A stretch of 26,426 bases of DNA, taken from positions 1-26,426 of the forward strand of contig DASWIR010000113.1 in NCBI GenBank assembly GCA_036397575.1. The letters run 5' to 3'. The notes beneath the pieces are model-generated. The model was not told the DNA's origin, searched no databases, and saw only the letters and a list, made by a program, of their open reading frames with translations. The DNA comes from Alteraurantiacibacter sp. (lineage in GTDB: Bacteria > Pseudomonadota > Alphaproteobacteria > Sphingomonadales > Sphingomonadaceae). The translations under genes and the position numbers were made by a program. Below, piece after piece: positions 1-16,992 of this stretch (the stretch's first letter is position 1; each line of letters opens with the position of its first letter).

Positions 1-1080
1 AGCAAGGCGGTTTACGCCAACGCCACGATCCGGCCGTTCGACGAAGGGGCGCTCGGGGGCCTCAGTTTCACTGGCGGCCTGCGCTATTCGGACGACAAGA
101 AGGTCGTGTCGCTTTCCAACCTCGTGGAGGACACGCCCAACCCCACCGATATCGAGTTCGACGTGACGCCCGAAGCGCAGGTGCTGAGCTGGAAACTCGG
201 GGTCAATTACGAGGTCAATTCGGACGTCCTGCTCTATGCCTCGGCGGCTACGGGCTACACTCTCCCCGGCTTCAACCCGCGGCCGCAGCAGCCGAGCCAG
301 ATCGCCCAGTTCGACGGCAATGAAAGCGTCGCCTATGAACTCGGCGCCAAGCTGGACCTGCTCGACCGCCGCCTGCGATTGAACCTCGCTGGCTTCTACA
401 CCGACTTCAAGAAGCGCCCGCAGGCGCTGGGCGGCCAGGAGCTCCTGCTCGGCCCGGATGGCCAGCCGACCGGGGGCAACAGCGTGCTGATCCCCCTTCC
501 CGACGGACCGGAAGGATCGACCACCTGCCGCACGCGCACGCCGGAAGAAATCGCTGCCAACGTTCCGGGCTTCTCGTGCATTATTCGCAACTATTACATC
601 AACACGCCGGCAACGATCTGGGGCTTCGAGGCGGAAGCGACGGCCGAGCCGGTGGACGGCCTCGTCTTCAACGGAGCGGTGGGCTATCACAAGTTCAGCT
701 CACCCGACGTGGACAACCGCGCCATCAACCCGCGCCAGCCAGAGCCGTTCTGGACCGCCAATGCCGGCGTGCAATACACGATCGAAGGCGCACCGCTGGG
801 TGGGACGATCACCCCGCGCGTCGACTGGAGCTACCAGGGCAGCCGGATCCAGAGCACGCGCACGACCGAGTGGAACGAACCGGCCTATTCGCTGGTCAAT
901 GCGCGGCTGACCTATGCGCTGCCCGATGAAGGGTTCTCGATCGCGCTGGGCGTCACGAACCTGTTCGACAAGCTCTACTACCACAACTTCTTTATCCTGC
1001 AGGATTTCGGACAATCCAACGTCCAGGGCCAGCCTGCCGCTCCCCGCGAGTGGTATCTGAGGCTCGCCAAGGACTTCTGA
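1..1080 (+). CDS. TonB-dependent receptor, C-terminal part (5' end outside window)
   Basis: Frame is open from base 1 (SKAVYANATIRP...GGLRYSDDKK). Beta-barrel motifs YASAATGY..PGFN, YELGAKLDLLDRRLRLN, NLFDKLYY, and a C-terminal Phe (PREWYLRLAKDF). Confidence 0.95.
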   Translation, partial: SKAVYANATIRPFDEGALGGLSFTGGLRYSDDKKVVSLSNLVEDTPNPTDIEFDVTPEAQVLSWKLGVNYEVNSDVLLYASAATGYTLPGFNPRPQQPSQIAQFDGNESVAYELGAKLDLLDRRLRLNLAGFYTDFKKRPQALGGQELLLGPDGQPTGGNSVLIPLPDGPEGSTTCRTRTPEEIAANVPGFSCIIRNYYINTPATIWGFEAEATAEPVDGLVFNGAVGYHKFSSPDVDNRAINPRQPEPFWTANAGVQYTIEGAPLGGTITPRVDWSYQGSRIQSTRTTEWNEPAYSLVNARLTYALPDEGFSIALGVTNLFDKLYYHNFFILQDFGQSNVQGQPAAPREWYLRLAKDF

Positions 1081-1107
1081 ATTTTCTGAATCCCGCACCT
1101 CCCAACT

Positions 1108-1153: not shown

Positions 1154-1273
1154 GCCGATAGCCGATTGTCCAAACCGACAGGCCATCTCAGCGCAATTTC
1201 CTCTCAGGCGCAGGCGTAGCGCCGCCCGCCGAGCATTATGTGAGGAAATGCCAATCCGGCAGGGGCGGCATAT

Positions 1274-1305
1274 GGCGGTGATGTCAGTCTAACCGCAACT
1301 CGTCT
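1274..1305 (+). repeat. 32-bp direct repeat, copy 1 (partner 14818-14849)
   Basis: GGCGGTGATGTCAGTCTAACCGCAACTCGTCT vs GGCGGTGCTGTCAGTCTAACGGCAACTCGTCT, 30/32 identical. Confidence 0.92.
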
Positions 1306-1382
1306 CCGATTGACGGAACTCTCCCCTCCCCAGCTTCAGCTCAGACCATAAGGGACCGTCACTCTGCCGGGGCGGCCGAGCG
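1274..1382 (-). mobile_element. IS6-family remnant (right terminal repeat plus degenerate transposase C-terminus), left copy
   Basis: Minus strand 1382-1341 reads RSAAPAE*RSLMV*, matching the alphaproteobacterial IS6 transposase ending RSAALAEWxSLM as I recall it. It is followed by an end reading GGTGATGTCAGTCTAA inward, similar to IS6 IRs (IS26 GGCACTGT, IS6100 GGCTCTGT). Confidence 0.65.
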
Positions 1383-1403
1383 GTGGGCCAGGCGGAGGCC
1401 GGA

Positions 1404-2786
1404 TCAGACGGGAGCGCCCTCGGCGCGCATGGCAAGGATGCGCTTGCGGTACGGCTTCAGCCCCAGCCAATAGCAGATTGCCGTCGCGGGAAACAGGATC
1501 GCGGCCGAAACGGCGATAGCGTAGCGCAGCAGCGCCTCGTCACCGAACACGTGCTGCGTCAGGAACGCGAGCCAGGTCGGCCCGATGCCCCGGCTGGCGG
1601 CAAGCACGATGAACAGGTAGATTGCCGTCATCTGTCCGCGCATCGCGTTCGGGGTGATGATCTGCAAGGCGGTGTTGAGCGAGGGAGCGGAGATCAGCAT
1701 GACTGCCGGGCCCACCGCGAGCAGCACCAGCGCGAGCCATGGCGAAGGCATCAGCGGCCCGGCGATCATGAACGGGATCGCGACCGTCAGGCCGATGGCC
1801 ATGACGCGCATGTTGGTATCGGCGTGGCCGCGTTTGCGGAAAAAGTCGTTGAACCAGATCGCACCAAGCAAGCCCGGCACGGCCAGCCCGAGGTAGAGCA
1901 TGCCCTGGTAGAACCCGATCTGCGCCGGCTCCCACCCGTATGTCCGCGAATAGAAAGCCGCGCCCCAGGTAGCCAGCCCCATCATATGGATGGAGGTGAA
2001 GCACAGGCCGAGGAACATCGGCCCGTAGAGCCGCCGCTCGCGCCACAGGTAGGCAAGCACCTGGAGCAGGCTTGCCGCGCCGCCCTTGCCGGCGGCGGGA
2101 GCGACGGCGGCGAAACTGCGGCGCTTGGGCTCCGCCACGCCGACCATCAACAGCGCGATAGGAAGACCCAACAGGCCGGTCAGGAGGAAGACAACTTGCC
2201 AGTCGGCCATGAGGCCAACCAGCGGCACATCGAGCGGCGGCATGTTTGACAGGATGTGGATCGCCAGCGCGCCGAACAGCATCGACAGCGCGATCCCCGC
2301 CTGCATGCCGACGTTGTAGATCGCGATCGCGCGGGGCAGCTTCTCGGGCGGGAAATAGTCAGCAAGAAGGGAGTACGAAAGCGGCCCGCTGATCGCTTCC
2401 CCGGTCCCGATCCAGAACCGCGCCGCGAAGAACTGCCAGAAGCTGTTCGCCAGCCCGCACGCCGCCGTCGCCGCGCTCCAGATCCCGATCGACCAAGTCA
2501 TTAGCCACTTGCGGTTGTGGCTATCCACAAGCCGCGCCGCAGGAATCCCGACGAAGGCGTAGAACAGCACCACCGAAAACCCGAGCAAGTAGCTCATCTG
2601 CATGTCGGTCAGCTGCAAGTCGGCCTTCACCGGCTCTACCAGCAACATCATCACGCCGTCGTTGAGCATCGCGCACATCTGCACCGCCGCGAGAACCCAC
2701 GCCACATAGTAGGCCTGGCGCAGGGGTGGCCACGGCTCATCCTCAACGCCGTCGGCGGCTGGCTGCGCGGCGCTGATGTCAGTCAA
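1404..2786 (-). CDS. MFS transporter (spinster-like)
   Basis: Hydrophobic multi-TM pattern, motif A-like ARLVDSHNRK, GTGEA and PPEKLPRA. Probable TTG start at 2786 behind GGGAGAG (ORF track extends to 2846). Confidence 0.9.
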   Translation of the reverse strand: MTDISAAQPAADGVEDEPWPPLRQAYYVAWVLAAVQMCAMLNDGVMMLLVEPVKADLQLTDMQMSYLLGFSVVLFYAFVGIPAARLVDSHNRKWLMTWSIGIWSAATAACGLANSFWQFFAARFWIGTGEAISGPLSYSLLADYFPPEKLPRAIAIYNVGMQAGIALSMLFGALAIHILSNMPPLDVPLVGLMADWQVVFLLTGLLGLPIALLMVGVAEPKRRSFAAVAPAAGKGGAASLLQVLAYLWRERRLYGPMFLGLCFTSIHMMGLATWGAAFYSRTYGWEPAQIGFYQGMLYLGLAVPGLLGAIWFNDFFRKRGHADTNMRVMAIGLTVAIPFMIAGPLMPSPWLALVLLAVGPAVMLISAPSLNTALQIITPNAMRGQMTAIYLFIVLAASRGIGPTWLAFLTQHVFGDEALLRYAIAVSAAILFPATAICYWLGLKPYRKRILAMRAEGAPV

Positions 2787-2885
2787 AAAACTCTCCCCAC
2801 CAGATGCCGGCGATGCGCCAGGGCTGTCCTTGCAAGTTCCGACCACGGCGGTCCTCAGGGGACATCGACACAGGACCTGGAGCCG

Positions 2886-3926
2886 CTAGTTGCCATACGG
2901 CCCCGGCGACCCCCCGGGCTTGGTGGCGCCGTTCCAGTGTTCGACGAGCCGGTTACCCTCGATCCGAAACATGTCGAACCAGGTCGTGGTGTAAGTCTCT
3001 CCCGCACGCCTTGGGTGAGGGTGTTCGCGGGCGGATACCACCACCACGAGATCGCCCTGCGCCAACACGGCGACGAGCGGTGCCTGCATCGATCCAGGGA
3101 CGGGCGAGCCGCTGCGAGCCGCGATACGGGTCCTGAAGGCCTCCCGGCCCGTATCGATATTCGGATCATGTTCGATGTAGTCTTCGTCGAGATAGAGGTC
3201 GGCGACCTCCTCGCGTCCTGCATCGATCGTCTGGCGCCAGGCATCGAAGACGAGGCGCTTGTTGGCCGCCAGCACCGGGTTTGCCGCTTGCAGCAGCGCG
3301 AGTTGCGCGGTGCCCGAAACGCCGGTGACCGGTTGCGGACCGCCCTCCGCGGCAGAGGGCAGGTCCGGGCGTGGTGCGTCCTGCACCGAATGCCAATGTT
3401 CGGCGAGGCGGCCGTCTTCGATGCGGAACAGGTTGAAATGCGTGGTCGTGTAATACCCGTCGCTGCCTGGTTCCGGCACACTCTCACGCAGCGCCATCAC
3501 CACCAGGTCTCCTTCCGCGATGATGGTCACCAGAGGGGGTGAAACCAATTCGGGAATTTCCGTGCGCTTCACGACGGAGAAGATCTGTTTGAAGGCTGCG
3601 CGGCCCGTGGGCAGAATCGGACTATGCTGGATATACTCTTCGCGAAGCATCTCATCCGCCAGTTCGACCTGTCCGGCGTTGACGATGCTGCGCCACATAT
3701 CGAACACTAGGCGTTTGTTGGCGGCGTAAGCCGGGTCCTCATCCTCGACCAGCGGAAGCGGGTCTGGATGGCCCGATACCTCCACGGGCCCCGGCCCGGT
3801 GGCCAAAGGCGGTGGGGGCGCCAGGCTTGCAGTTGGTGGGGGTGATATCATTCCATCCGTGGCGGCGGCGCAGGCTAACAGGAGCAAGAAGACGGTAGCT
3901 GCACCGAAACGCATACTTCTCTTCAT
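2886..3926 (-). CDS. Secreted protein with two SnoaL/NTF2-like domains
   Basis: Signal peptide MKRSMRFGAATVFLLLLAC, Pro-rich linker, then two homologous domains (ANKRLVFD.WR, YI[QE]H, GDLVV, F.[LM]FRIE..RL.EHW). Confidence 0.85.
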   Translation of the reverse strand: MKRSMRFGAATVFLLLLACAAATDGMISPPPTASLAPPPPLATGPGPVEVSGHPDPLPLVEDEDPAYAANKRLVFDMWRSIVNAGQVELADEMLREEYIQHSPILPTGRAAFKQIFSVVKRTEIPELVSPPLVTIIAEGDLVVMALRESVPEPGSDGYYTTTHFNLFRIEDGRLAEHWHSVQDAPRPDLPSAAEGGPQPVTGVSGTAQLALLQAANPVLAANKRLVFDAWRQTIDAGREEVADLYLDEDYIEHDPNIDTGREAFRTRIAARSGSPVPGSMQAPLVAVLAQGDLVVVVSAREHPHPRRAGETYTTTWFDMFRIEGNRLVEHWNGATKPGGSPGPYGN

Positions 3927-4100
3927 GATCACCCTTTTTACCGTGTGTGTTACCTCTCGGTCCGCTGCGGTCCGGCTCCGAAGAACCAGGCCGCAGCCGG
4001 CAAGGCGTTAAAACTTCTTTCCAAACTGAACCTGGAACACGCGGCCAAGCGGGCTGCCGATCACTTCACCCGCGGCTTCACGCAATCCTGTCGGTTCGCC

Positions 4101-6659
4101 TCAGAACTCCTTCTTCACCGTGACCGCCCATTCGCGCGGACGACCGACCTGGGCCACCAGCGGGCCGTTGCCGGTGGCCGCGTTGCGGATGTCGAACTTG
4201 TTCACGAAATAGTACTTGTCGAAGATGTTGGTGACCTCGAGGCTGACCGAGAGGTCGTCGTCCGCATTGCGCCAGGTAATGCGGCCGTTAGCCAGCGTGT
4301 AGGCCGGGTTGAGCCCCGACGCATCTATTCCGCGCAGCACGCCTCCGGGCAGGGCCAGCGAGCGGCTGACGTCGATGCGCGGTGTGATCGAGCCGTTGTT
4401 TCCGCCGAGCTGCGCTTCGTACTGGATACCGAACGCCCACTTCCAGCCGTGCAGCGGCTCGGCCAGCAGGCCGATGACCGCCGGATCGGAGCTGCATGGC
4501 CCGTTCGGAAGGCCGACGACGGCGGGGTTGACGCACTTGTACTCGCTGTCGAGGTATGAGGCCGAGCCGTCGATCAGCAGGCCCTCGATCGGGTTCGCCG
4601 TCAGCTCCAGCTCGATCCCCTTCTGCCGCGAGTCGCCCGCGTTCTGCGGCGCGGCGCACGGCGTGGGCGACACCGGGTCGAGGCTCGGACAGTCGCTCAA
4701 GACGAGCTGCTGGTCCTTGAACTCGTTGAGGAAGGCGGTGACATTGAAGCGAACCCGACGGTCGAACAAGTCGGTCTTCAGGCCCACTTCGTAAGTGGTG
4801 ACTTCCTCGACGCCAAACGGCGCGGCCTGTGCTGCGGTAAACGGACGGGGGACGACGCCGCCGCCCTTGAAGCCGGAGGCGATCGTCGCATAGGCGAGAA
4901 TCGCGTCGCTGAAGCGATAATCGACCGAAGCACGGTAATCGAAGCGGCTGCCGTCGTAGTTGGCCGTGCGCCCGCTCAGCGCTGTCACGATCTCCGTGGT
5001 ATTTCCGTTACCGTTGATGTCGGCGGAGTCCGGTCCGTTGTAACCGATCCCGTAGAAGGCTCCGACCCGGTCGAGGAACCGGTTAACGGTCGTGCCATCG
5101 ATGTTGTAGCGGAAGAACGTGTAGTCCTTGTGCTCCTCGGTGTAGCGCCCGCCGAGAGTGACGGTGAGGTCCTCCAACGGCTCGATGATAAGGGTCGCGA
5201 AGGCCGCCTTCGTATCGGTGTTCACCGGATCGTCGCCGATGAACTGCAGCGGGAACAGTCCCACCAGTCCGAACGGCGGGCCGATATCAACCCCAATCGA
5301 GCGGATATCCTGCAGCGTCCAATAGGTCGTACGCTCGTCCGAGTAATAGGCGCCGAGCGTCAGGTCGGCGATGTCGCCGAGGTCGACGTTGAGGCGCAGC
5401 TCCTGGCTGACGAACCAATGGTCCAGCTCGTTTTGCCCGAAGCCTCCGATGGTCGGCGCAAGGTCGGTATCGCTGTCGAAGGCCGTGTCCCATTCGCGGT
5501 AGGCCGAGATCGACACTAGGTTGAGCCTGTCGCTGAGGTCGATCGAAAGATTCGCCGAAACACCCCACCCCTCGTAGGTGACTCGCGGATCCCCCATTAG
5601 GCCCGGCAGGACGACCACCGGCGAGAAAGCGCCGAAGAAAGGATCGGGAACGAGAATGCCGAAGAAAGGCGCGGTATGGCTGGAGTACTGGGAGTAATTG
5701 CAGAACCGGCCGCACAGGAACCGGCTGTCGAACGGCTGCCCGTCCGCGCTCAATATGTTGGTGTTCGGGTCGTTTGCCGCGAGCAGGATTTCGGGGGCCT
5801 GATTGCGCACGTCCTTGATGTAGTCGGCGGAAATCAGCAGGCTCACCGCGTCGGTCGGTTCGAAGTTCAACATGCCGCGGACCGCGCGGTAGCCCACGTC
5901 GCCGAGCCGGCCTTCGACGCAGTCTGAGCCCGACTGGATACCCCCGTTCGCGCAGTTGTAGTCGATGCGATCGACATAGCCGTCCTGGTCCGCCATCGTG
6001 CCGGTGATGCGGCCGGACAACGTGTCGGTCAGCGGGAATTCGGCCGCGGCACGCAAGTTGATGCGGTTGCGGCTGCCGTACGTCGCCTGCACGTAGCCGC
6101 CGGTGTCGCCGGTCGGGCGACGGCTGAAGAACTTGATCGCGCCGCCTTCCGAATTGCGCCCTGTGAGCGTGCCCTGCGGTCCGCGGAGGATCTCGACGCG
6201 CTCCACGTCCATGATGTCGAAATTCGCGCCGGTCAGGCGCGGGTAGTAAACGTCGTCGATGTAAAGGCCGACGCCGGGCTCCATCGCGGGGTTGAAGTCG
6301 CCTTGGCCAAGCCCGCGAATGGTGGCCGAGATCGCCGGACCGAAGGCGCCAGTCTGCGGGCGCAAGTCGACGCTCGGCGCCTGCCGCACAACCTCGGAGA
6401 GCGTCGTCTGGCTGCGCGCCTCCATCATCTCGGCATCGACCGCGGTGATCGCCAGAGGCGTGTCCTGCAGCCGCTGCTCGCGGAACTGTGCGGTCACGAC
6501 GATCTCGTTGGAGCCGGCCGAACCGATCCCGGCCTGCTCGGGGCTTTCGGTGGCATCGTCCTGCGCCAACGCGGGAGACACGCCCAGCGTCAGGGCCAAG
6601 GCGGAAGCGCCCGCGGTGAGCGCGGCGCGGATGTGGCTGGGGTAGCGTGAAATTGCCAT
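4101..6659 (-). CDS. TonB-dependent receptor (about 852 aa)
   Basis: ATG at 6659 behind GAGGGAGAG. Signal peptide ending ALAQ, TonB box EIVVTAQ, plug motif VERVEILRGPQGTL.GRNS.GG, C-terminal REWAVTVKKEF. The ORF-track extension to 7127 is non-coding. Confidence 0.95.
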   Translation of the reverse strand: MAISRYPSHIRAALTAGASALALTLGVSPALAQDDATESPEQAGIGSAGSNEIVVTAQFREQRLQDTPLAITAVDAEMMEARSQTTLSEVVRQAPSVDLRPQTGAFGPAISATIRGLGQGDFNPAMEPGVGLYIDDVYYPRLTGANFDIMDVERVEILRGPQGTLTGRNSEGGAIKFFSRRPTGDTGGYVQATYGSRNRINLRAAAEFPLTDTLSGRITGTMADQDGYVDRIDYNCANGGIQSGSDCVEGRLGDVGYRAVRGMLNFEPTDAVSLLISADYIKDVRNQAPEILLAANDPNTNILSADGQPFDSRFLCGRFCNYSQYSSHTAPFFGILVPDPFFGAFSPVVVLPGLMGDPRVTYEGWGVSANLSIDLSDRLNLVSISAYREWDTAFDSDTDLAPTIGGFGQNELDHWFVSQELRLNVDLGDIADLTLGAYYSDERTTYWTLQDIRSIGVDIGPPFGLVGLFPLQFIGDDPVNTDTKAAFATLIIEPLEDLTVTLGGRYTEEHKDYTFFRYNIDGTTVNRFLDRVGAFYGIGYNGPDSADINGNGNTTEIVTALSGRTANYDGSRFDYRASVDYRFSDAILAYATIASGFKGGGVVPRPFTAAQAAPFGVEEVTTYEVGLKTDLFDRRVRFNVTAFLNEFKDQQLVLSDCPSLDPVSPTPCAAPQNAGDSRQKGIELELTANPIEGLLIDGSASYLDSEYKCVNPAVVGLPNGPCSSDPAVIGLLAEPLHGWKWAFGIQYEAQLGGNNGSITPRIDVSRSLALPGGVLRGIDASGLNPAYTLANGRITWRNADDDLSVSLEVTNIFDKYYFVNKFDIRNAATGNGPLVAQVGRPREWAVTVKKEF

Positions 6660-7010
6660 TCTCTCTCTCCCTCTGAACTGTTGTTGGACGGCTGGACCGT
6701 CAGTTCCCAAGTGGAACATGCCGGATCTGCGACCGGCGCGCGGAGGGCGCACCAGCCGCCCCAGCGGCTCCAGGAGGGCTGTCACTTGGCTACTGGAATG
6801 GGAGGGAAGCCGTGATTTGCCCGAATGGGCACGCCGATTGCGCGCATTACGTGGGTTGCCAGTAGTCATCTCATCCCTCCCCGGTGAGGAGCTTGTGCGG
6901 CCGCGTTTTCCGCCGAACCTTGCCGCCTGCCTTCGGCAGACCGCGCCGTTCGATCTTTGTTCTGGACGCTCGCTCTCGTTCAATGGACGGTGTGTGACGT
7001 TTGCCGGGCG

Positions 7011-7030
7011 CGAAAATAGTGCTGTCAATT
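7011..7030 (-). promoter_or_regulatory. Conserved 20-bp element containing TTGACA, facing the TonB receptor
   Basis: Minus strand AATTGACAGCACTATTTTCG is identical to plus strand 7192-7211. Confidence 0.7.
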
Positions 7031-7191
7031 GCCCAGCCCCGCCGATCGCGGGGCGGCCACGCCGATCCGGCAAGCCCGAAATCGAGATGCGATGGCCCTC
7101 GGCCCGACGCCGGCCCGGTATCGACATCGCCCTGGATGAGCGAGGCGCGGCCTATGTCGCCGATGGGCGACGCGCGGCCTCCTCAGCGAGG

Positions 7192-7211
7192 AATTGACAG
7201 CACTATTTTCG
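7192..7211 (+). promoter_or_regulatory. Conserved 20-bp element containing TTGACA, facing the dioxygenase operon
   Basis: AATTGACAGCACTATTTTCG is a perfect inverted copy of 7011-7030; similarity continues downstream for about 60 bp. Confidence 0.7.
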
Positions 7212-7388
7212 TGCCGGGCAAACGCTTCACAGTATCACTTGAACGACAAATAGGCGCCGAGAACAGACGTCGAACCAGCTCTGGAGGCTGACGCAGAAGC
7301 TGGGTTTGACGAAAGCGCGGTCGCGCATCGCCTTCGATGGCCGTGCGTCAGACCTTACAAGACGGGGCGAGGACGCAAGGGCACAAGA

Positions 7389-8261
7389 ATGCAGATCAAC
7401 CAGCTTCACCCGAGGTTCGTCGGGGAAATTATCGGCCTGGACACTTCGGCACCCATCACGCCCGAGACGATCGAGGCTGTCGAGGCCGCAATGGCGCAAT
7501 ATGGCGTCTGCGTGATCCGCGATGCCAGCCTGACGGACGAGGATCACCTCCGCTTCAGCCGCGCTTTCGGCCCGCTCGAGCTAGCACCGGGTGGGGGCAA
7601 GCGTATCGCGCCGGAGATCTTCGACGTCGGCAATCTCGATCCCAACGGCGAGATCATCCAGCCGAACCCCGAGGGGCCCCAGGCAGCGGACTTCGAACTG
7701 TTCCATACCGACAGCCCTTGCAACACAATGCCGACCAAATGGTCGCTTCTGCTCGCCTATGTCACGCCGCCTGTGGGCGCCAACACGGAATACATCGATC
7801 TGCGCGCCGTCTATGAAGATCTGCCGCAAGAAACGAAGGACCGGATCGAGAATCTCGCCGCCGAACACGATCTCTTCCATGCGCTCGAGCTGAAGAGCGG
7901 CAAGTCCGTGAGCGACGACTTGCGCAAGGCTTATCCGCGAACGCCGCAGGCGCTCGTGCGGACTTCCGCGAGCGGTCGCAAGACGCTTTACCTGGGCTGG
8001 CATGCCGTCGGGATCGTCGGCTGGAGCGAGGGGGAAGGCCGCAAGCTCCTGAGCGAGCTCTACGCGTTCGCGACGCAGGACAAGTACGTCTATTCGCACA
8101 AATGGCGACCCGGCGATCTCGTCATCTGGGACAATCGCTGCACAATGCATAGCGCCACGTCCTTCGAGCGCTACCGCTACAAGCGCGACATGCGCCGCAC
8201 GACGATCAACGAATACGGCCCTGAGGAATTGGGGATCGAGGGTATGCGCGCCGCCGGCTAG
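7389..8261 (+). CDS. TauD/TfdA-family Fe(II)/2-oxoglutarate dioxygenase (TfdA-like)
   Basis: HxD (FHTDS), distal His in WDNRCTMH, Arg in KRDMRR. Resembles TfdA in LHP.F, FGPLE, D.RA.Y..LP and SGRK.L. Confidence 0.92.
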   Translation: MQINQLHPRFVGEIIGLDTSAPITPETIEAVEAAMAQYGVCVIRDASLTDEDHLRFSRAFGPLELAPGGGKRIAPEIFDVGNLDPNGEIIQPNPEGPQAADFELFHTDSPCNTMPTKWSLLLAYVTPPVGANTEYIDLRAVYEDLPQETKDRIENLAAEHDLFHALELKSGKSVSDDLRKAYPRTPQALVRTSASGRKTLYLGWHAVGIVGWSEGEGRKLLSELYAFATQDKYVYSHKWRPGDLVIWDNRCTMHSATSFERYRYKRDMRRTTINEYGPEELGIEGMRAAG

Positions 8262-8309
8262 CGCCGGCCAGCGCATGCTAACGGCGATCGAACCGATCGG
8301 AGAGAACCA

Positions 8310-9119
8310 GTGGAAAGTGTAGCAGCCATTACCAGTTCGGATCATGGCACAGTCGCCAGTTTCATTCGCTATTCGGCTCGCGACGCGGATGGCGGCTATA
8401 TCGAGGGGAACGGCGTCTATTCGTTCGGGATGGAGGACCATCCGGCGATCGTGCGCAATGCACGGCTGGCGGAGACCTCTTGGAAGACGCACGGCTTTGC
8501 GCTGCTCAAGCATTCGACCGATGTCGACTTCGCCGACAAGGAGGACTTCGAGAGACGCTATTACCCCGAAGTCAGCCGACTGGTGCGCGAGCTGACGGGT
8601 GCCAGCGAGGTCTTCGTTTTCCTCGGCATATTGCGCGGCGGCGAGGATGCGGCGGGCGGCGGTCCGGCGCTGAGCGCGCATGTCGACTTCAACGAGGCGG
8701 CCTTGCGCGACTGGGTGCGCCGCCTGGCGCCTGACCGAAGCGAAGAGCTGGCCGGGAAGCGGCTGATGAACGTAAACGTTTGGCGCGGCGTGCGCCCCGT
8801 GGAGAACATGCCGCTGGCGGTGTGCGATGCGCGCAGCGTCGACAAGGGCGATTTCATGCGCGTGGCGCTCGGCAAGCCTGAGGGCGGGTTCAGGGACGAC
8901 ATGCCGGCAGGCCTGAACATGGCCTACAACCCGAAGCACGAGTGGTACTATTTCCCCGACATGCAGCCCGACGAGGCGCTGGCGTTCCGACTGTTCGACA
9001 CCGACAACCCCGACTGGAAGATGACCGGGCACACCGCCTTCGAGGACCCCAGCTCCAAACCCGATTCTCCCAAACGCCAGAGCTTCGAAGTCCGAACCAT
9101 CGCGGTTCTCGAAGAGTGA
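8310..9119 (+). CDS. CmcJ/NvfI-family oxidoreductase (putative Fe/2OG oxygenase)
   Basis: Motifs AHVDF, NVWR, PLAVCD, WYYFPDM.PDEAL.F, HTAF.DP and RQSFEVR. GTG start behind GGAGAG. Confidence 0.85.
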   Translation: MESVAAITSSDHGTVASFIRYSARDADGGYIEGNGVYSFGMEDHPAIVRNARLAETSWKTHGFALLKHSTDVDFADKEDFERRYYPEVSRLVRELTGASEVFVFLGILRGGEDAAGGGPALSAHVDFNEAALRDWVRRLAPDRSEELAGKRLMNVNVWRGVRPVENMPLAVCDARSVDKGDFMRVALGKPEGGFRDDMPAGLNMAYNPKHEWYYFPDMQPDEALAFRLFDTDNPDWKMTGHTAFEDPSSKPDSPKRQSFEVRTIAVLEE

Positions 9120-9163
9120 TGCCGGCGCGTAACCAGATCCGGATCGACGCCGGCAAAGTTGAG

Positions 9164-9475
9164 TCAGTCGATTGCGGCACCCGCCGGCGCACCGATGCGG
9201 AAATGCGCTTCTTCCAGTCGGACCAGACTGGCGTGCCCATCCTGCTGCCAGGGATCCTGGGAAAGGCGTTCGCGCACATGGTCCTCGCTGTCGGCAAGAA
9301 ACACGAACAGCACATCGTTCGTCTCCTGCAGCAGGCCGGCCATGGCGATGAAACCCTCCTTCTCGAGCCCGTCCATGTGGGCCACGTGACCAGCGAAACC
9401 CTCCTGCTCATGCGCTGGCTTGGAGTGGTCCCACGCATCGGTGCGCCTGACGATGGCCACGAACGTCTTCTTCAT
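9164..9475 (-). CDS. YciI-family protein
   Basis: About 103 aa with GHVAHM..L..EG.I..AG and DPW motifs. ATG at 9475 behind GGAAAGG. Confidence 0.75.
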   Translation of the reverse strand: MKKTFVAIVRRTDAWDHSKPAHEQEGFAGHVAHMDGLEKEGFIAMAGLLQETNDVLFVFLADSEDHVRERLSQDPWQQDGHASLVRLEEAHFRIGAPAGAAID

Positions 9476-9557
9476 GATGGCAGCCTTTCCCATTGGTTTC
9501 ACCAGCCGGTCTATAAGTTATTGACTGCATAACTCAAGTTAAAAATGGAGCTTAGAA

Positions 9558-10757
9558 ATGCAAGTTTTCGTATTTGACTGGACTGCCTACGCAGAGAACG
9601 TAGATAAGTTCCGTATAGATGACGAAATGCCGCGCCTTGTTAAAGAGCATTTTGAGCCCAAAGTTGCAACTAATACTTACAAATGGCATATTGAGGCTTG
9701 GGTCGAGCTCGAAAATCTCGGTTTTGACGGGGTCGCCATCAACGAACACCATGGCACGCCCTTCGGTTTGGGCAATTCGCCGAACCTGATGGCTGCCGCG
9801 CTTTCGCAACTGACTAGCAAGCTCAAGATACTCATCTATGCCAACCTGCTGCCAATCCACGAGCCTCTGCGCCTGGCCGAGGAACTGGCGATGCTCGATT
9901 GCATGACCAACGGCAGACTGATCGCGGGCGTCGGACGCGGCGCGCCGCGCGAATACAAAATCTTCAACGTGCCGATGAGCGAATCGCGCGGGCGCTTCAA
10001 CGAAGGCTTCGAAGTGATGCGCCGGGCCTGGACCGAGGACAGCTTTTCTTTCGACGGCGAATTCTACAAGTTCGACGACGTATCGATCTGGCCGCGCCCG
10101 GTGCAGCAGCCACACCCGCCGATCTGGGTCCCCCTGACCGGCTCCAAGGAGTCGATCGAATGGGCCGCCGCCAACGACGCGGCGATCACTCCCGGCATTT
10201 TCGCCGGCTCCATGCGCGAGGACACAATCCGCTATTTCGCGCAGTGCCAGGCGAAATACGGCCGCACCGTTCGGCCGGACAAGATCAGCATCATGGTCGA
10301 TTGCTACGTCGCCGACTCCAAGGAGCAGGCGATCGAGGAATACGGCGAGTATCTGATGTACCTGTTCAACACGCTGCTGCGCTACGATCAGGTCTGGCAG
10401 AAGGACGTCAGTAAGCAGGGCTATTACAGTTCCACGGCCTTCGAACATTTGCGCGAAGGCGCGAAAGGCACCCTGGCCGAGGACGACACTGTCTTCAACG
10501 AATGGACGTTGGAAACGGTGCGCGCCGCGGCCGAACATATGCCGATGGGGACGGCCGACGAGATCGTCGAACGGATCATCGCGGAATGCGACGATGCGGG
10601 TGCCAACAACGTCCTGCTGGTCTGCAATCGGGGGCACATGCCGCAGGAGATGTATCTCAACCAGATCCGGCGGATCGGGAAGGAAGTTCTGCCGAGGCTA
10701 CAGGCGCATAACGTGACGTTCGTGCCGCATGCGCAACAACAGGTCGCGGCAGAGTAG
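9558..10757 (+). CDS. LLM-class flavin-dependent oxidoreductase (luciferase-like monooxygenase)
   Basis: LGFDGVAINEHH, PLRLAEELAMLD..TNGRL..GVGRG and PRPVQQPHPPIW motifs. Confidence 0.93.
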   Translation: MQVFVFDWTAYAENVDKFRIDDEMPRLVKEHFEPKVATNTYKWHIEAWVELENLGFDGVAINEHHGTPFGLGNSPNLMAAALSQLTSKLKILIYANLLPIHEPLRLAEELAMLDCMTNGRLIAGVGRGAPREYKIFNVPMSESRGRFNEGFEVMRRAWTEDSFSFDGEFYKFDDVSIWPRPVQQPHPPIWVPLTGSKESIEWAAANDAAITPGIFAGSMREDTIRYFAQCQAKYGRTVRPDKISIMVDCYVADSKEQAIEEYGEYLMYLFNTLLRYDQVWQKDVSKQGYYSSTAFEHLREGAKGTLAEDDTVFNEWTLETVRAAAEHMPMGTADEIVERIIAECDDAGANNVLLVCNRGHMPQEMYLNQIRRIGKEVLPRLQAHNVTFVPHAQQQVAAE

Positions 10758-10867
10758 GATCGGCTGCGCGGCGATAGCCGGGTCGGAATGGCTCCGCTCG
10801 CGAAGCCGACGCCGTGCCGTCACCCAAACCGTGGGTGTCGGAAAAGAAACTGACTAGGGAGCAAGGA

Positions 10868-11587
10868 ATGGCAAGCAAGCGCGCGACAATAGTGATCGTC
10901 CATGGCGCATGGGTTGGCGGTTGGCGTTGGCGAACCGTGGCGGACATGCTGCGCGACCGCGGTCACCGTGTGTTCACGCCCACGCTCACCGGCCTTGGAG
11001 AGCGCGCGCACCTGACGAGCCCCGCCGTTAACCTCTCCCTGCACGCCCGCGATGTTGCCAATGTCATCGAGTACGAGCGGCTCGAGAACATTCTGCTTGT
11101 CGGCCATTCCTATGGCGGGATGCCGATCTCGGTGGCGGCGGAGCTCGTGCCCGAGGGCATCATTCAGTCGATCATGTACCTGGACGCCTTCCTTCCCGAG
11201 GATGGCGAATCCTTGAACGATCTCGTCCCCGGGGAGCCGCACTTGCCGCCCGACCCCGAGGATTACCTCGTGCCGCCGCCCCGCGCCAACTTGGTGGGAT
11301 TCAACACCCATATGGATGCCGAGGCGCGTGCGGCCTACGAGGACCGCCGTACGCCGCAATCGGTCCATTGCTTCAGCGAAAAAGCGCACCTCACGGGCGC
11401 ACGCGAGCGCATCGCGCAAAAGACCTATGTGCTTGCCACCGGGTACAAGAACGACACCTTCACGCCGGTCGCCGAAAAGCTCCGCGAACGCCAGGGCTGG
11501 CGGGTGGAGGAAATGCCCTACACGCACGATCTGCAGCACGTCGCGGTGACGGAAACCGCCGACATGATCGAGACGGCGCTCCCCTAA
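10868..11587 (+). CDS. Alpha/beta hydrolase (esterase-like)
   Basis: VHGAW.GGW.W, nucleophile GHSYGG, YLDAFLP.DGES, C-terminal His (THD). ATG at 10868 behind GGAGCAAGGA. Confidence 0.9.
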   Translation: MASKRATIVIVHGAWVGGWRWRTVADMLRDRGHRVFTPTLTGLGERAHLTSPAVNLSLHARDVANVIEYERLENILLVGHSYGGMPISVAAELVPEGIIQSIMYLDAFLPEDGESLNDLVPGEPHLPPDPEDYLVPPPRANLVGFNTHMDAEARAAYEDRRTPQSVHCFSEKAHLTGARERIAQKTYVLATGYKNDTFTPVAEKLRERQGWRVEEMPYTHDLQHVAVTETADMIETALP

Positions 11588-11589
11588 GG

Positions 11590-13023
11590 GTGCCAGCTGG
11601 GGAGAACACGCAAGCGGGGGGCATTGTAGCCACGCCCGCGGCGGAACATCCGCTGCTCAGGCCGGGCTACAAAAGGTGGCTCGTTTTCGTGCTGCTGCTG
11701 GTGAGCGTGTTCAATTTCGCCGACCGGGCGATACTGGCGGTGCTCGCTCAGCCGATAAAGGAAGACCTTCACCTCACTGATACCGACCTGGGCATCCTCC
11801 AAGGGCTCGGATTTGCTATTCTCTATTCGGTGCTCGGCGTTCCGCTGGGAATGATGGCCGAGCGCGTCAACCGGACACGCCTGATCGCGATTTGCATCGC
11901 CGTGTGGTCGGTGATGACGGTGGCCTGCGGGTTCGCGACAAGCTTTTTCACCCTGCTGCTCGGCCGCATCGGCGTCGGTATCGGCGAGGCCGGCTCGCAG
12001 CCGTCGACGATGTCGCTGCTGTCCGACCATTTCAAGCCGGACCGCCGCGCCTCAATGGTGGCTATCGTGATGCTGGGAGCTCCCTTCGGCTTCCTGCTCG
12101 GCCAGTCGGTCGGCGGCTGGGTTACCAGCGTGTGGGGCTGGCGCGCCGCCTTCTACGTGATGGGCGTTCCGGGCGTGCTTGTTGCCTTGCTGGTCTTGTT
12201 CACCTTGCGCGAGCCGCCGCGCAGCCTAGTCGACGGCGTAGTGTCAACGGGCAAAGCACCCTCCCTGATGGCGGTGCTGCGCTATCTGCTTTCCAGGCCG
12301 ACATTCAGGCACCTGCTCGCGGGGTTCACGATCGCGGGCTTTGCGATGAATGCCATCGCGAACTTTGTGCTGCCGTTCTACTTGCGCGGCTTCACCATGC
12401 CGCTGATGGTGCTCGGCGTGGTGTTCGGCTTCGTCACCTTCACCTCGAACGGTATCGGGATGCTTCTCGGTGGATTCGGCTTCGACCGGCTTTCGAGAAA
12501 GGACGCGCGATGGATCCTGTGGGGGCCGGCACTGGCGCTGGTCCTGTGCGTGCCGGTCCTTTTCGGCGCATTCATCAGCCAGGCGATCTATGTTTCGCTT
12601 GCCTTCATGTGGCTCGGCAATCTGTTGATGATCACGTTCATGGCGCCGACCCTGGGGACGATGCAGAACCTCGCCGGTCCCCGAATGCGCGCCACGACCT
12701 CGGCTCTGACCCTCATGGTCAGCGGGCTGCTTAGCGCGGGACTGGGACCGACTGTCCTGGGCATGGCGAGCGACTTCTTTGCAACTCGCGCCTTTGAGGG
12801 TCCCGATTTCATTGCGAGCTGCCCTGGTGGGCGAGGACCGGACGGTTCGGGTAGCGCGCTGGATATTGCCTGCCTGTCGGCGTCGACGGACGGGCTGCGC
12901 TATGCCCTGATTGGCGTGCTGGTGTTCCTTTTGTGGGCGGCGATCCACTATGTGCTCGCCGCGCGCCATCTGAAGGACGATTTTTACGATCCGGCGAAGG
13001 AAGATCCCGCGCCCGCTGCCTGA
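11590..13023 (+). CDS. MFS transporter (spinster-like); start codon uncertain
   Basis: FNFADRAILAVLAQPIKEDL.LTD, AERVNRTRLIA, GIGEAG and DHFKPDRRA. The in-frame GTG at 11590 follows the hydrolase stop. Confidence 0.88.
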   Translation: MPAGENTQAGGIVATPAAEHPLLRPGYKRWLVFVLLLVSVFNFADRAILAVLAQPIKEDLHLTDTDLGILQGLGFAILYSVLGVPLGMMAERVNRTRLIAICIAVWSVMTVACGFATSFFTLLLGRIGVGIGEAGSQPSTMSLLSDHFKPDRRASMVAIVMLGAPFGFLLGQSVGGWVTSVWGWRAAFYVMGVPGVLVALLVLFTLREPPRSLVDGVVSTGKAPSLMAVLRYLLSRPTFRHLLAGFTIAGFAMNAIANFVLPFYLRGFTMPLMVLGVVFGFVTFTSNGIGMLLGGFGFDRLSRKDARWILWGPALALVLCVPVLFGAFISQAIYVSLAFMWLGNLLMITFMAPTLGTMQNLAGPRMRATTSALTLMVSGLLSAGLGPTVLGMASDFFATRAFEGPDFIASCPGGRGPDGSGSALDIACLSASTDGLRYALIGVLVFLLWAAIHYVLAARHLKDDFYDPAKEDPAPAA

Positions 13024-13059
13024 CGCTTTGCTCCCGCCGCCGTGAGCGACGGGCCTGGA

Positions 13060-14484
13060 TCAGAGGGGGCGGCTGCGGCTCATCTCCAGCATCACGCGCG
13101 CCGATTCCCGCTTGGCCCATTCGAGCTGCGCCTGGTCTCCTGCATCGATCTTGTCGAGCAGGCGGTGCAGCAGGTCGAAGTACTCGGCCTGCATATGCAC
13201 CGGCAGTCCCTCGGCGAGGAAAGGGTGGAAGCGCGCCTCGTAAGCGGCAAGGCTGCGCGAGAACAGGTCGATGATAGGACTGTCCGAAAGCTGCGAGACG
13301 CATTGGACCAGCCGCAGCAGGTCGTAGCGGTCGATCGGATCGCTGCGCTGCGCACGCTCGAGCAAGGTCTTCAGCTTGCCGCGCTGCTCCTTGTTCGCGC
13401 GGCTCGCGGCCAGCGCCGGTACGAAGCGGTTGAGCTGGAACAGTATGGTGCCTGCCGCCATCGGATCCATTTGGCGGCTGATGAGGTAGGCCAGCACCAG
13501 CCGGATGCTGCCCGTTCCCCGCAGGTCTCGCACGACCAATCCGTTGCCCCGGCCGCGGCGGCATTCGACGAGGCCGCTGTCCTGCAACTGACGGATGGCT
13601 TGGCGCAACGTCGGTCGGCTGACGCTAAAACGCTCGCATAGGTCCCATTCTGATCCCAGCCGCTGGCCGGCGCCAGCGCTACCAAGGATTTCGGCACCGA
13701 GCCTGCGCGCAACGAGTGTTGACAGCGTGCGATCATCGGCCATGCGCGAGGTGTCTATCGCGGGCAGTTGCAGCGCACCGTCGTCTCGCCGCAGCCATTC
13801 GTGCAACCCTACGTCGAGCCTGGCAGCTTCTGTCTGGGCGGCATTGACGTCGCCGCTTTCGAGCGCCGTGCACATGACCTCTGCCTGGCTCGCGGCGTGC
13901 ATTTGCCAGCCGCTCGCTTCGGCGTCGGAACGGACGAATTCCGCCGTAAGATCGTTCAGGCATTCGACGATGAGCTCAATGACCGGCTCGCCGGTCAGTC
14001 TCGCGATTGCTGCACGAATGCGTAGATGCCACTCGGGCCCGCTGCCGCATTCGCCCGGCTGAGCCAGTTTCGCGATCTGCTCGGCATCCGGCCTGGCCGA
14101 TGCCGCAAGCCCCGCGGCCATCAGATCGACGGCCTCGCGCGCGTCTTTCAATTGGGTCAGCGTTATGCCTGCCATGCGGAAGTAATTGGCCAGTTCCGCT
14201 CCGATCGCTCCAAAATCGGGCTGGGCAACGATGAACCCGCCGCACGGACCCGGGCGTAATCGGCCGAGTCCTCTGCGTTCGAGCAGCGCGACAGCCTCGC
14301 GCGCAGCGGCCCGGCCTACGGAATAGCGTTCGGACAATTCGCGCAGGGATCCCATGACGCCGCCCACGGGAACATTGTTGGACGCGATGTCGTCCTCGAT
14401 CAGTCGGGCCAGCTTTTCCGCCAGCCCCGCAGTCGCGGCATCCTCGCTGGTGGATGCAGAGTAAATCTTTTCTGCGGTTGTCAT
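13060..14484 (-). CDS. Tandem GntR/FadR-type regulator (two wHTH plus effector-domain units)
   Basis: HTH1 GSLRELSERYSVGRAAAREAVALLERRG and HTH2 GSEWDLCERFSVSRPTLRQAIRQLQDSG, each followed by a helical FCD-like domain; 474 aa. Confidence 0.85.
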   Translation of the reverse strand: MTTAEKIYSASTSEDAATAGLAEKLARLIEDDIASNNVPVGGVMGSLRELSERYSVGRAAAREAVALLERRGLGRLRPGPCGGFIVAQPDFGAIGAELANYFRMAGITLTQLKDAREAVDLMAAGLAASARPDAEQIAKLAQPGECGSGPEWHLRIRAAIARLTGEPVIELIVECLNDLTAEFVRSDAEASGWQMHAASQAEVMCTALESGDVNAAQTEAARLDVGLHEWLRRDDGALQLPAIDTSRMADDRTLSTLVARRLGAEILGSAGAGQRLGSEWDLCERFSVSRPTLRQAIRQLQDSGLVECRRGRGNGLVVRDLRGTGSIRLVLAYLISRQMDPMAAGTILFQLNRFVPALAASRANKEQRGKLKTLLERAQRSDPIDRYDLLRLVQCVSQLSDSPIIDLFSRSLAAYEARFHPFLAEGLPVHMQAEYFDLLHRLLDKIDAGDQAQLEWAKRESARVMLEMSRSRPL

Positions 14485-14564
14485 ACGGTCCTCTCGGGAT
14501 TGATTGAAACCCCTGCAGACCGCCGATGCAAGCCAAAAGCCCGCCCGGAGGATTTATATTTTTC

Positions 14565-14588
14565 CTGACCAATGTCAGCACTATTTTC
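14565..14588 (+). promoter_or_regulatory. Candidate operator upstream of the GntR gene
   Basis: Palindrome CTGAC-CAAT-GTCAG (14565-14578) overlaps CAATGTCAGCACTATTTTC, which matches the 7192 element at 16/19. Confidence 0.5.
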
Positions 14589-14616
14589 AGAGTAGCGCGG
14601 GCTGCGGCTCAATACG

Positions 14617-14829
14617 ATGTCCCCAAACATCACCCTCTTCAATCTGCGCGGGATCTCGCAGAACAATTTCACCGACAATCTCGAAGCGCCCGTAGCTGTC
14701 TACTTTGACGACGCCTACATGGGCTCGATCAACGGCATCAGCGGTCAGTTATTCGACCTCCAGCGCATCGAGGTCCTAAGAGGACCTCAAGGCACTTTGT
14801 TCGGCCGCAACGCAACGGGCGGTGCTGTC
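14617..14829 (+). pseudogene. TonB-dependent receptor plug-domain fragment
   Basis: PNITLFNLRGISQNNF...APVAVYFDDAY...DLQRIEVLRGPQGTLFGRNATGGAV. No signal peptide or barrel; ends at the IS6-like end. Confidence 0.85.
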
Positions 14830-14849
14830 AGTCTAACGGCAACTCGTCT
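14818..14849 (+). repeat. 32-bp direct repeat, copy 2 (partner 1274-1305)
   Basis: 30/32 identity with 1274-1305. Confidence 0.92.
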
Positions 14850-14990
14850 ACACCGGGCGCATGATCGCCAAATCGGCTCGCGCTCAGGACATAAGGATTG
14901 CCACTGAGCCAGGGCGGCGGAGCATCTTTTCTTGAATGTCTTTCAATCGGCTAGATGGAGTTCCTGGTTTAAGGTTGTGGACGCAGACGG
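14821..14990 (-). mobile_element. IS6-family remnant (right terminal repeat plus degenerate transposase C-terminus), right copy
   Basis: Minus strand from 14969 reads NQELHLAD*KTFKKRCSAALAQWQSL, matching the recalled IS6 ending NQERHLVDRQTYK.RRSAALAEWQSL; VHN lies just upstream in another frame. Ends in GGTGCTGTCAGTCTAA read inward. Confidence 0.7.
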
Positions 14991-15007
14991 CTCGTGAGGG
15001 GCAGATC

Positions 15008-15565
15008 CTACTCGTCTCGCGCCGGATCCTGTCGGTCAGTATTCCGCTTCGCTTCCGCGTCCCATCGCGCCTGCCGTTCCTCCTCGCGCAGTTCGTCGGC
15101 GATCCCGTCGTCGCAACGGCGTTCCTGAAATCGCTCCCACTCCTCCATACTGACACGCAATGTGCCGGTCTTCTGCGGCGCGTACTTCTGCCGGAGAAGC
15201 TCGTTCTCCTGCTCAAGACGGTCCATCCTGTCAGTGAGCAGACGGCCGGTCATACGCTGCTGGAGATCGACATTCGAGGCCATCATCGTCAGTTGCAGAA
15301 AATCCTTGGCCGCAACCCGGTTACCCTTTGCTCCGGCAATGCCGAGGCGAAGAATATTCGCCTCGAATATCGTCAGGTTTTCAGTCTTGCCCTCGACGTT
15401 CACCGGAAGCTTGCGATCAGCCACCCGGAAGATCGCATTACGGCGTGACGCGGGAAGCTTGGGATCCCTCGCAATCCTGTACGGCCTGCCACGCGGATTT
15501 CCGGAACTCCTGAACCGCCCCTTCTGGTCGCGCTGAACTTCGGGCTGGTCGTCTTCATGGTTCAC
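15008..15565 (-). CDS. DUF5681 domain protein
   Basis: GRF..SGNPRGRP, then V.VEGK....T..EA and A.KGN..AAK.FL. The GTG start overlaps the methylase stop (GTGA). Confidence 0.8.
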   Translation of the reverse strand: MNHEDDQPEVQRDQKGRFRSSGNPRGRPYRIARDPKLPASRRNAIFRVADRKLPVNVEGKTENLTIFEANILRLGIAGAKGNRVAAKDFLQLTMMASNVDLQQRMTGRLLTDRMDRLEQENELLRQKYAPQKTGTLRVSMEEWERFQERRCDDGIADELREEERQARWDAEAKRNTDRQDPARDE

Positions 15566-16943: not shown

Positions 16944-16978
16944 GTCAGTTACTCCGTAGTCAGTTACTCCGTAGTCAG
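16944..16978. repeat. 15-bp tandem repeat (2.3 copies) duplicating the ribosome-binding site
   Basis: GTCAGTTACTCCGTA x2 plus GTCAG; the minus strand reads ...GGAGTAACTGACTACGGAGTAACTGAC-ATG. Confidence 0.9.
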
Positions 16979-16992
16979 GTGCGCAGGAGACC

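What the first reader, a model, noticed from the sequence alone, without database searches (positions are those of the whole stretch)
1274..14990. Catabolic cluster bracketed by two decayed, same-orientation IS6-like ends (fossil composite element)
Seen: a 32-bp direct repeat (30/32) at 1274 and 14818. Each copy is followed on the minus strand by a degenerate peptide (RSAAPAE*RSLMV*; NQELHLAD*KTFKKRCSAALAQWQSL). Established: IS6-family elements bound cargo as direct repeats and make adjacent deletions; the IS6 tail match is from memory. Inference: the 13.4-kb MFS-to-GntR cargo was once mobilised or rearranged by IS6. The two tails differ, so two related elements or long decay are both possible. 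Neither remnant is in the ORF track.
Basis: partly seen in the sequence, partly recalled or inferred. Interest (0 to 1): 0.68.

Follow-up and report, generated by a model that had tools for sequence, protein, structure and literature searches.

The report
Two decayed IS6 insertion-sequence ends
The two 32-base repeats are real leftovers of two different IS6-family jumping genes that sit on either side of an accessory nutrient-breakdown gene cluster, but they look like separate old insertions, not the two arms of one transposon, so the finding is ordinary.

Summary
The 30/32 direct repeat at 1274/14818 is real (0 expected by chance).

The IS6 assignment is supported. The repeat is the right-end terminal inverted repeat (IRR) of an ~840-bp IS found intact in related genomes. 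Its 238-240-aa transposase passes NCBIfam transpos_IS6 and Pfam DDE_Tnp_IS240. A DNA profile built from 11 intact copies matches window 1277-1389 (IS positions 1-113, E 4e-15) and 14821-14988 (positions 1-172, E 4e-26). The true IS end is GGTG; the preceding GGC is flank. Relic b cut a TonB-dependent receptor gene, leaving a 200-bp plug fragment.

The composite-transposon inference is not supported:
- The relics are 27/29 identical in the inverted repeat but only 54% identical beyond it, so they come from two different IS6 lineages. IS6 copy-in and targeted reactions produce or need identical copies.
- The cargo cluster occurs in two other genera without IS6 nearby.
- A 99.8%-identical block shared with another metagenome strain runs across both relics.

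Some IS6 involvement in local rearrangements remains plausible. The finding is ordinary: new relic members of a known IS family.

The parts
1277..1389 (-). Relic a: right-end inverted repeat (IRR; 1277-1305, conserved 29 nt) plus spacer and the last ~15 codons of an IS6-family transposase gene, read on the minus strand with an in-frame stop. It corresponds to IS positions 1-113 of ~840.
   Evidence: nhmmer with a profile of 11 intact IS copies, E 3.6e-15; translation AHRSAAPAE*RSLMV* against intact C-termini ..RRSAALAEWQNLMA*; alignment A1.
14821..14988 (-). Relic b: IRR (14821-14849) plus spacer and about 33 C-terminal codons of an IS6-family transposase gene, read on the minus strand with an in-frame stop and a 2-base gap against the IS profile. 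It corresponds to IS positions 1-172.
   Evidence: nhmmer E 4.2e-26; tblastn of intact transposases to 14987-14889, 48-57% identity, E 6.5e-4 to 3e-3; translation.
14617..14820 (+). Orphan fragment of a TonB-dependent receptor gene (second half of the plug domain). It is cut at its 3' side by the IS end at 14821 and lacks its own 5' part.
   Evidence: Pfam Plug PF07715, profile positions 47-107 only, E 2e-8; translation; 70% aa identity to residues of a full-length receptor in G014.
1404..14484 (.). Accessory 'import and oxidise' cluster between the relics: MFS transporter, SnoaL-like protein, TonB-dependent receptor, TauD/TfdA dioxygenase, YDMC-family protein, luciferase-like monooxygenase, alpha/beta hydrolase, second MFS transporter, and a 474-aa GntR-type regulator.
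   Evidence: Pfam and precomputed Pfam. Orthologous cluster found in only 2 of 120 family genomes, with a different gene order.
15008..17069 (-). Phage-derived remnant fused to the truncated inner end of relic b: a DUF5681 protein and a ParB-like nuclease/DNA methyltransferase. The latter is split by a 1-base deletion in this genome.
   Evidence: Pfam; PHROGs phrog_498 and phrog_620; 1-base indel at about 16449 against L052 and L066.
1..1080 (+). 3' part of a separate TonB-dependent receptor gene, which forms the left flank of relic a.
   Evidence: Pfam TonB_dep_Rec_b-barrel E 5e-34. The same-genus ortholog in G001 C278 is followed by a different gene.

Best explanation
Positions 1277-1389 and 14821-14988 are dead, one-ended relics of two different IS6-family insertion sequences. 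Each keeps the right-end inverted repeat (IRR) and the 3' tail of the transposase gene.

The likely history is as follows. Each IS inserted independently into a tolerant spot of a mosaic accessory region. Relic a landed in the gap between two convergent genes. Relic b landed inside a TonB-dependent receptor gene. Later, deletions not made by the transposase removed the left end and most of the transposase gene of each IS, together with neighbouring DNA. These deletions stop 15-20 bp short of the stop codon of the next gene.

The relics now have no transposition function. The catabolic cluster between them is an accessory cluster that is not shown to have moved as an IS6 unit.

Shown: the IS6 identity, the truncation points, the disruption of the receptor gene, and the divergence between the two relics. 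Inferred: that the two insertions were independent, and the order of the deletions.
For: - The terminal repeat belongs to elements of 826-843 bp with imperfect inverted repeats that start with GG.
- Their transposases pass NF033587 and PF13610.
- The nearest plasmid homologues are annotated as IS6 family transposase: Sphingomonas sp. NY01 85% and Sphingopyxis macrogoltabida 78%.
- The IS profile matches both window segments from position 1, and nothing else in the window matches.
- The relics are 27/29 identical in the inverted repeat but 44/82 beyond it. Fisher p is 9e-5, and the probability of 2 or fewer repeat mismatches under equal decay is 5e-6.
- Relic a is closest to a copy in G001 (73%), which lies in a different context. 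Relic b is closest to G000 C187 (69%).
- Published experiments show that IS26-type targeted cointegration needs identical transposases and identical DNA at the reacting end, and copy-in duplicates a single IS (PMC7885326).
- Other relics in the same genome are also lone ends in ordinary intergenic gaps.
- The cargo cluster in G119 and G077 has no IS6 hit in the fetched regions, which reach about 7-28 kb beyond the cluster.
- The 99.8%-identical block in assembly L066 spans roughly 500-16500 and crosses both relics.
Against: - Two relics 13.5 kb apart in the same orientation is somewhat unlikely by chance, at roughly 2-3% given 3-5 other relics in 2.55 Mb.
- IS6 elements typically flank cargo as direct repeats (PMC7986276).
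- Relic a's truncated end abuts the 3' end of the MFS gene, exactly where the gene order differs from G119 and G077.
- Homology with the same-genus genome ends near the left relic.
- The genome is a 75%-complete MAG, so intact partner copies may be missing from the assembly.
Confidence: 0.7

Rival explanations
1. Fossil pseudo-compound transposon or cointegrate. A replicon or translocatable unit carrying the MFS-to-GntR cluster was joined to this chromosome by IS6 copy-in or targeted cointegration. That left the cargo between two directly oriented IS copies, which later decayed to the present relics.
For: - Same orientation and close spacing, about 2-3% by chance.
- A direct-repeat arrangement is the family hallmark (PMC7986276).
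- The cargo is accessory, found in 2 of 120 family genomes and not found in the same-genus genome G001.
- There is a synteny break near the left relic.
Against: - The two relics are only 54% identical right beyond a 93%-identical inverted repeat. They therefore diverged as active lineages, not as twins decaying in place.
- Both IS6 routes yield or require identical copies (PMC7885326).
- The cargo cluster elsewhere lacks IS6 neighbours.
- The block recently shared between strains is not bounded by the relics.
- No target duplication can be checked, because the outer end of IS b is gone.
Confidence: 0.17
2. IS6-shaped rearrangement without a composite unit. One or both elements did not carry the cluster in. 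While active, they caused adjacent deletions or inversions that reordered the cluster and removed the rest of the receptor gene and of a prophage.
For: - The receptor gene is cut exactly at the IS end.
- The MFS/SnoaL module is inverted and relocated relative to G119 and G077, with relic a at its new edge.
- The phage block is truncated where it meets relic b.
Against: - Transposase-made adjacent deletions and inversions leave the IS intact, whereas here the IS bodies themselves are truncated.
- No inverted partner copy or 8-bp signature is present.
- The gene-order differences are between genera and could have many causes.
Confidence: 0.1
3. Not a mobile-element relic at all. The repeat could be a chance or coding-motif repeat (the TonB-receptor GGAV motif), a small RNA gene, a MITE or a regulatory site.
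For: - Copy b continues the reading frame of the receptor plug motif.
- The ~165-bp unit first looked like a discrete dispersed repeat.
Against: - Copy a is not in a receptor gene.
- There is no Rfam family match.
- There is no second inverted end, as a MITE would have.
- The sequence aligns base for base with the IRR side of intact IS6 elements and continues into transposase codons.
Confidence: 0.02

Closest known systems
IS6 (IS26) family insertion sequences, alphaproteobacterial members such as the 'IS6 family transposase' elements on Sphingomonas sp. NY01 and Sphingopyxis macrogoltabida plasmids
   Same: - The intact relatives are 826-843 bp with a single 238-240-aa DDE transposase (NF033587, PF13610) and short terminal inverted repeats that begin with GG and resemble GGCACTGT.
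- They occur in multiple copies, often clustered in direct orientation.
   Different: - The window holds only 113-bp and 172-bp right-end stumps with stop codons, so there is no transposase and no left end.
- No clean 8-bp target duplications were seen even at 11 intact relatives.
- The inverted repeats are imperfect, and the conserved terminal block is longer (about 29 nt at the right end) than the 14 bp of IS26.
IS6100/IS26-flanked pseudo-compound (catabolic or resistance) transposons and translocatable units
   Same: An accessory gene cluster lies between two IS6-type ends in direct orientation, which is the arrangement described for this family (PMC7986276).
   Different: - The two ends come from different lineages, with 54% identity beyond the inverted repeat.
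- Both IS bodies are truncated, and the outer end of the right copy is lost.
- The same cluster elsewhere has no IS6.
- IS26-type reactions need identical partners (PMC7885326).
Truncated IS26 copies (delta-IS26) in resistance regions
   Same: They are one-ended IS6-family remnants left at the junctions of mosaic regions.
   Different: Delta-IS26 copies usually lie next to an intact IS26 that explains the truncation. Here no intact copy is adjacent, and the truncated ends lie 15-28 bp from the stop codon of the neighbouring gene.

Membership tests
IS6 family insertion sequence | Single DDE transposase of the IS6 type (NCBIfam NF033587, Pfam PF13610 DDE_Tnp_IS240) | tested here: met
   Intact elements that carry the same terminal repeat in G016, G022 and G018 score 179-229 bits against a cutoff of 125, and PF13610 gives E 1e-37 to 1e-39. 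The window relics keep only the last 15-33 codons. These align to those transposases and to the DNA profile.
IS6 family insertion sequence | Length about 700-890 bp (PMC7986276) | tested here: met
   Eleven intact relatives measure 826-843 bp. The window copies are truncated to 113 and 172 bp.
IS6 family insertion sequence | Short terminal inverted repeats beginning with GG | tested here: met
   The right end reads GGTGCTGTCAGTC.. and the left end reads GG(G/A/T)(C/T)(A/T)(C/T)TGTCA(A/G)A.. in 10 of 11 intact copies. They are imperfect. Only the right-end repeat survives in the window.
IS6 family insertion sequence | 8-bp direct target duplication | tested here: inconclusive
   None of 11 intact relatives shows a clean 8-bp duplication; the best is 7/8 at an offset. 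This cannot be tested for the one-ended relics. IS6 copies that arrived by cointegration or recombination often lack one.
IS6 pseudo-compound transposon / translocatable unit | Cargo flanked by two copies of the same IS in direct orientation | tested here: not met
   The orientation is direct, but the copies are 27/29 identical in the inverted repeat and 44/82 (54%) beyond it. Each is closer to copies elsewhere.
IS6 pseudo-compound transposon / translocatable unit | Same cargo found elsewhere with IS6 flanks or in a different context as a unit | tested here: not met
   The cluster in G119 and G077 is rearranged and has no IS6 profile hit in the fetched regions, which reach about 7-28 kb beyond the cluster. 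Near-identical metagenome contigs all show the same fixed structure.
IS6 pseudo-compound transposon / translocatable unit | 8-bp duplication flanking the whole unit, or an empty site in a relative | not testable with these tools
   The outer (left) end of the right-hand IS is deleted. The only same-genus genome is fragmentary and about 77% identical.

The most novel reading that the evidence does not exclude
The roughly 17-kb mosaic from 1277 to about 17650 (catabolic cluster, two IS6 stumps, receptor fragment, phage remnant) could be a strain-variable genomic island that was first brought in or stitched together by IS6 cointegration. It would then be a sphingomonad catabolic counterpart of IS26/IS6100 resistance and catabolic islands, with the stumps as its fossil seams.
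Probability: 0.15. Interest if true: 0.35.

Novelty: new member of a known kind. Interest (0 to 1): 0.15.

Why it matters
The result marks the MFS-to-GntR oxidation cluster as part of a mosaic, horizontally variable region. It also shows that an IS6 lineage with many intact copies in some related genera has left only stumps in this population. That helps annotation: two unannotated pseudogene relics, one receptor gene fragment and one frameshifted phage gene. It also guards against over-reading same-orientation IS ends as a transposon. It does not reveal a new mechanism.

Tried and rejected
- Coding-motif repeat: copy b continues a TonB-receptor plug motif, but copy a is intergenic and the first three bases are only flank.
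- Small RNA or discrete 165-bp dispersed repeat: there is no Rfam hit at the gathering thresholds, and only chance-level hits at E up to 5. The '165-bp unit' was an artefact of the query ending at the truncation point, because intact copies continue into a transposase.
- MITE: there is no inverted second end.
- DNA match to plasmids: none. A protein search did find annotated IS6 transposases.
- Target duplications: none convincing.
- Right-end retention bias: all terminal relics in this genome keep the right end, but related genomes have left-end and internal fragments too, so this is probably chance or sampling.
- Plug fragment and the receptor 3' part at 1-1080 as halves of one gene: rejected, because the G014 homologue of the fragment has no match to 1-1080.
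- tRNA-linked island: no tRNA in the window.
- Terminators or promoters in the relics: none.
- DNA-level synteny in 40-60 relatives: too divergent to resolve the right junction.
- L065 first looked like an alternative junction, but it is the same sequence with a gene call missing.
Full report
**Observation.** The repeat GGCGGTGATGTCAGTCTAACCGCAACTCGTCT at 1274-1305 recurs at 14818-14849 with two mismatches. A search allowing three mismatches finds only these two sites, and none in 100 dinucleotide-preserving shuffles. The window is the whole contig C113 of a 75%-complete, 486-contig metagenome-assembled genome.

**What the repeat is.**
- The same 29-32 nt also occur in this genome at C187:16915 and at C297:2382-2413 on the other strand. 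They occur in 10 of 36 genomes of the same family that were searched.
- Thirty-one copies were collected from the fetched loci. In many of them the motif GGTGCTGTCAGTCTAA.. is followed, on the opposite strand, by the end of an open reading frame ...HFNQERHLVDRQTYKTRRSAALAEWQNLMA*.
- In other copies it is followed on the same strand by ...ISYKRHRFPAAVIQHAVWLYYRF....
- Eleven copies are complete elements of 826-843 bp, and 10 of them carry an inverted copy of the motif (GG.nnnTGTCAGAC..) at the far end.
- Their 238-240-aa proteins score 179-184 bits on NCBIfam NF033587 transpos_IS6 (cutoff 125) and hit Pfam PF13610 DDE_Tnp_IS240 at E about 1e-39. The second type scores 229 bits. The two types are 48% identical.
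- The nearest plasmid-borne homologues are annotated 'IS6 family transposase' in Sphingomonas sp. NY01 (85%) and Sphingopyxis macrogoltabida (78%).
- Size, a single DDE transposase and short GG-initiated inverted repeats are the features given for the family in the review PMC7986276.

**Anatomy in the window.**
- An nhmmer profile of the 11 intact elements, oriented from right end (IRR) to left end (IRL), matches window 14821-14988 to IS positions 1-172 (E 4.2e-26). It matches 1277-1389 to positions 1-113 (E 3.6e-15). No other piece of the IS is present in the window (alignment A1).
- Intact transposases align by tblastn to 14987-14889: residues about 205-237, 48-57% identity, with an in-frame stop.
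- Both relics are therefore right-end stumps, with the transposase remnant on the minus strand. The missing IS body would have extended rightwards in both.
- The real IS boundary is GGTG. The GGC before it is flank, since other copies have other bases there.
- Relic a lies between the 3' end of a TonB-dependent receptor gene (1-1080) and the 3' end of an MFS gene (stop at 1404).
- Relic b abuts a 200-bp fragment of another receptor gene. Only the second half of the Plug domain remains, at 14617-14820. That IS therefore landed in, or was brought against, a receptor gene whose remainder is gone.
- The inner truncated end of relic b (14988) lies 20 bp from the stop of a phage-derived block: DUF5681 and a ParB-nuclease/DNA-methyltransferase.
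- The plug fragment's homologue in G014 (70% aa) has no match to the receptor part at 1-1080. The two are therefore not halves of one gene.

**Is the interval a fossil composite element?** There are points in favour.
- The relics have the same orientation and lie 13.5 kb apart. That is roughly a 2-3% chance event given 3-5 other relics in 2.55 Mb.
- IS6 elements characteristically flank cargo as direct repeats (PMC7986276).
- The cargo is accessory. An orthologue of its TauD-type gene was found in only 2 of 120 family genomes and not in the same-genus genome G001.
- In G001 the orthologue of the left-flank receptor is followed by a different gene, with homology ending at window 1153.

Several results go against it.
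- First, the relics are 27/29 identical in the inverted repeat but 44/82 (54%) beyond it. That is no closer than either is to elements of other genera. Relic a is nearest to a copy in G001 that sits in an unrelated context, and relic b is nearest to C187.
- If twins had decayed neutrally to 54%, keeping 27/29 in the repeat has a probability of about 5e-6, and Fisher p is 9e-5. The divergence therefore arose while the ends were under selection, in separate active lineages.
- IS26-type copy-in duplicates a single IS. The targeted route needs identical transposases and identical DNA at the reacting end (PMC7885326). Such unlike partners are therefore not expected to form or move a unit.
- Second, the cargo genes occur as a cluster in G119 and G077 at 57-85% aa identity and in a different order. 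There is no IS6 profile hit in the fetched regions, which reach about 7-28 kb beyond the cluster.
- Third, other metagenome assemblies carry the same structure with both relics base-identical.
- One of these assemblies, L066, is 99.8% identical from about 500 to 16500 and about 95% identical from 16500 to 17648. It then lacks window 17649-19496 and continues at 86.6%.
- If that contig is not a chimera, the block recently shared between strains crosses both relics and ends elsewhere.
- The right-hand junction could not be tested by synteny, because relatives are too divergent or fragmentary.

**Most likely history.**
- Two IS6 elements of different lineages inserted independently into a mosaic accessory region.
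- Later deletions that were not transposase-made removed their left ends, most of both transposase genes and neighbouring DNA. Transposase-made adjacent deletions would have left the IS intact.
- In three of the four terminal relics in this genome, the truncated end lies 15-28 bp from the stop codon of a co-oriented gene (1389 versus 1404, 14988 versus 15008, and C187 17137 versus 17165). This fits deletional erosion halted by selection on the neighbour.
- Some role of the elements in local rearrangement is plausible but unproven. Examples are the cut receptor gene and the MFS/SnoaL module relocated relative to G119 and G077.

**Ruled out.**
- There is no Rfam family, no MITE-type second end, no tRNA, and no terminator or promoter in the relics.
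- Plasmid records give no DNA match, and intact relatives show no clean 8-bp target duplication.
- The apparent discrete 165-bp repeat seen at first was an artefact of the query's own truncation. A full-length query shows complete copies and fragments of every part of the IS in relatives, up to 8 or more full copies in G016.

**Verdict.** The composite-transposon reading is not supported, though it is not excluded (about 0.17). These are ordinary relics of a known IS family, so interest is low.

Noticed in passing
window 6976-7030 / 7192-7246 and 14571-14592: A 55-nt inverted repeat (82% complementary, 161 nt apart) lies in the divergent promoter region between the TonB-dependent receptor and the TauD-type gene. 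Its core GACAGCACTATTTTC recurs upstream of the GntR-type regulator gene, so it is a candidate operator for that regulator.
   Followed up: no
window ~16449 (ORFs 15562-16359 and 16356-17069): The phage-type ParB-nuclease/DNA-methyltransferase gene is one 460-aa gene in assemblies L052 and L066. It is split here by a missing base, and it is also split in L064. This is either a polymorphic frameshift or an assembly error.
   Followed up: partly
window 16500-20378 versus L066 (ENA ERZ27256807 k141_1324853): Identity to another assembly drops from 99.8% to about 95% at roughly 16500. Window 17649-19496 (GST plus UPF0176/rhodanese genes) is replaced there by 444 bp, and then identity is 86.6%. This marks a strain-variable boundary at about 17648 that is unrelated to the IS relics.
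   Followed up: partly
G000 C187:16918-17137, C297:2307-2410, C274:16982-17142, C186:1755-2154: Further IS6 relics occur in the same genome. Two are right-end stumps in gaps between convergent genes, one is an internal fragment, and one is a type-B transposase piece at a contig end that may mark an unassembled intact copy.
   Followed up: partly
G018 C8:51468-100135; G025 C12:18789-23034; G016 (8 or more full copies): Related genomes carry several IS6 copies of this lineage in direct orientation within tens of kb, and nested insertions (L007). The family therefore appears to have been recently active (many near-identical full-length copies) in some genera of this bacterial family.
   Followed up: no
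window 13060-14484: The 'GntR' gene is a conserved 474-aa open reading frame (57-71% identical across its full length in G119 and G077). It has two GntR-type helix-turn-helix matches, the better one at residues 258-313. This is an unusual tandem architecture for the family.
   Followed up: no
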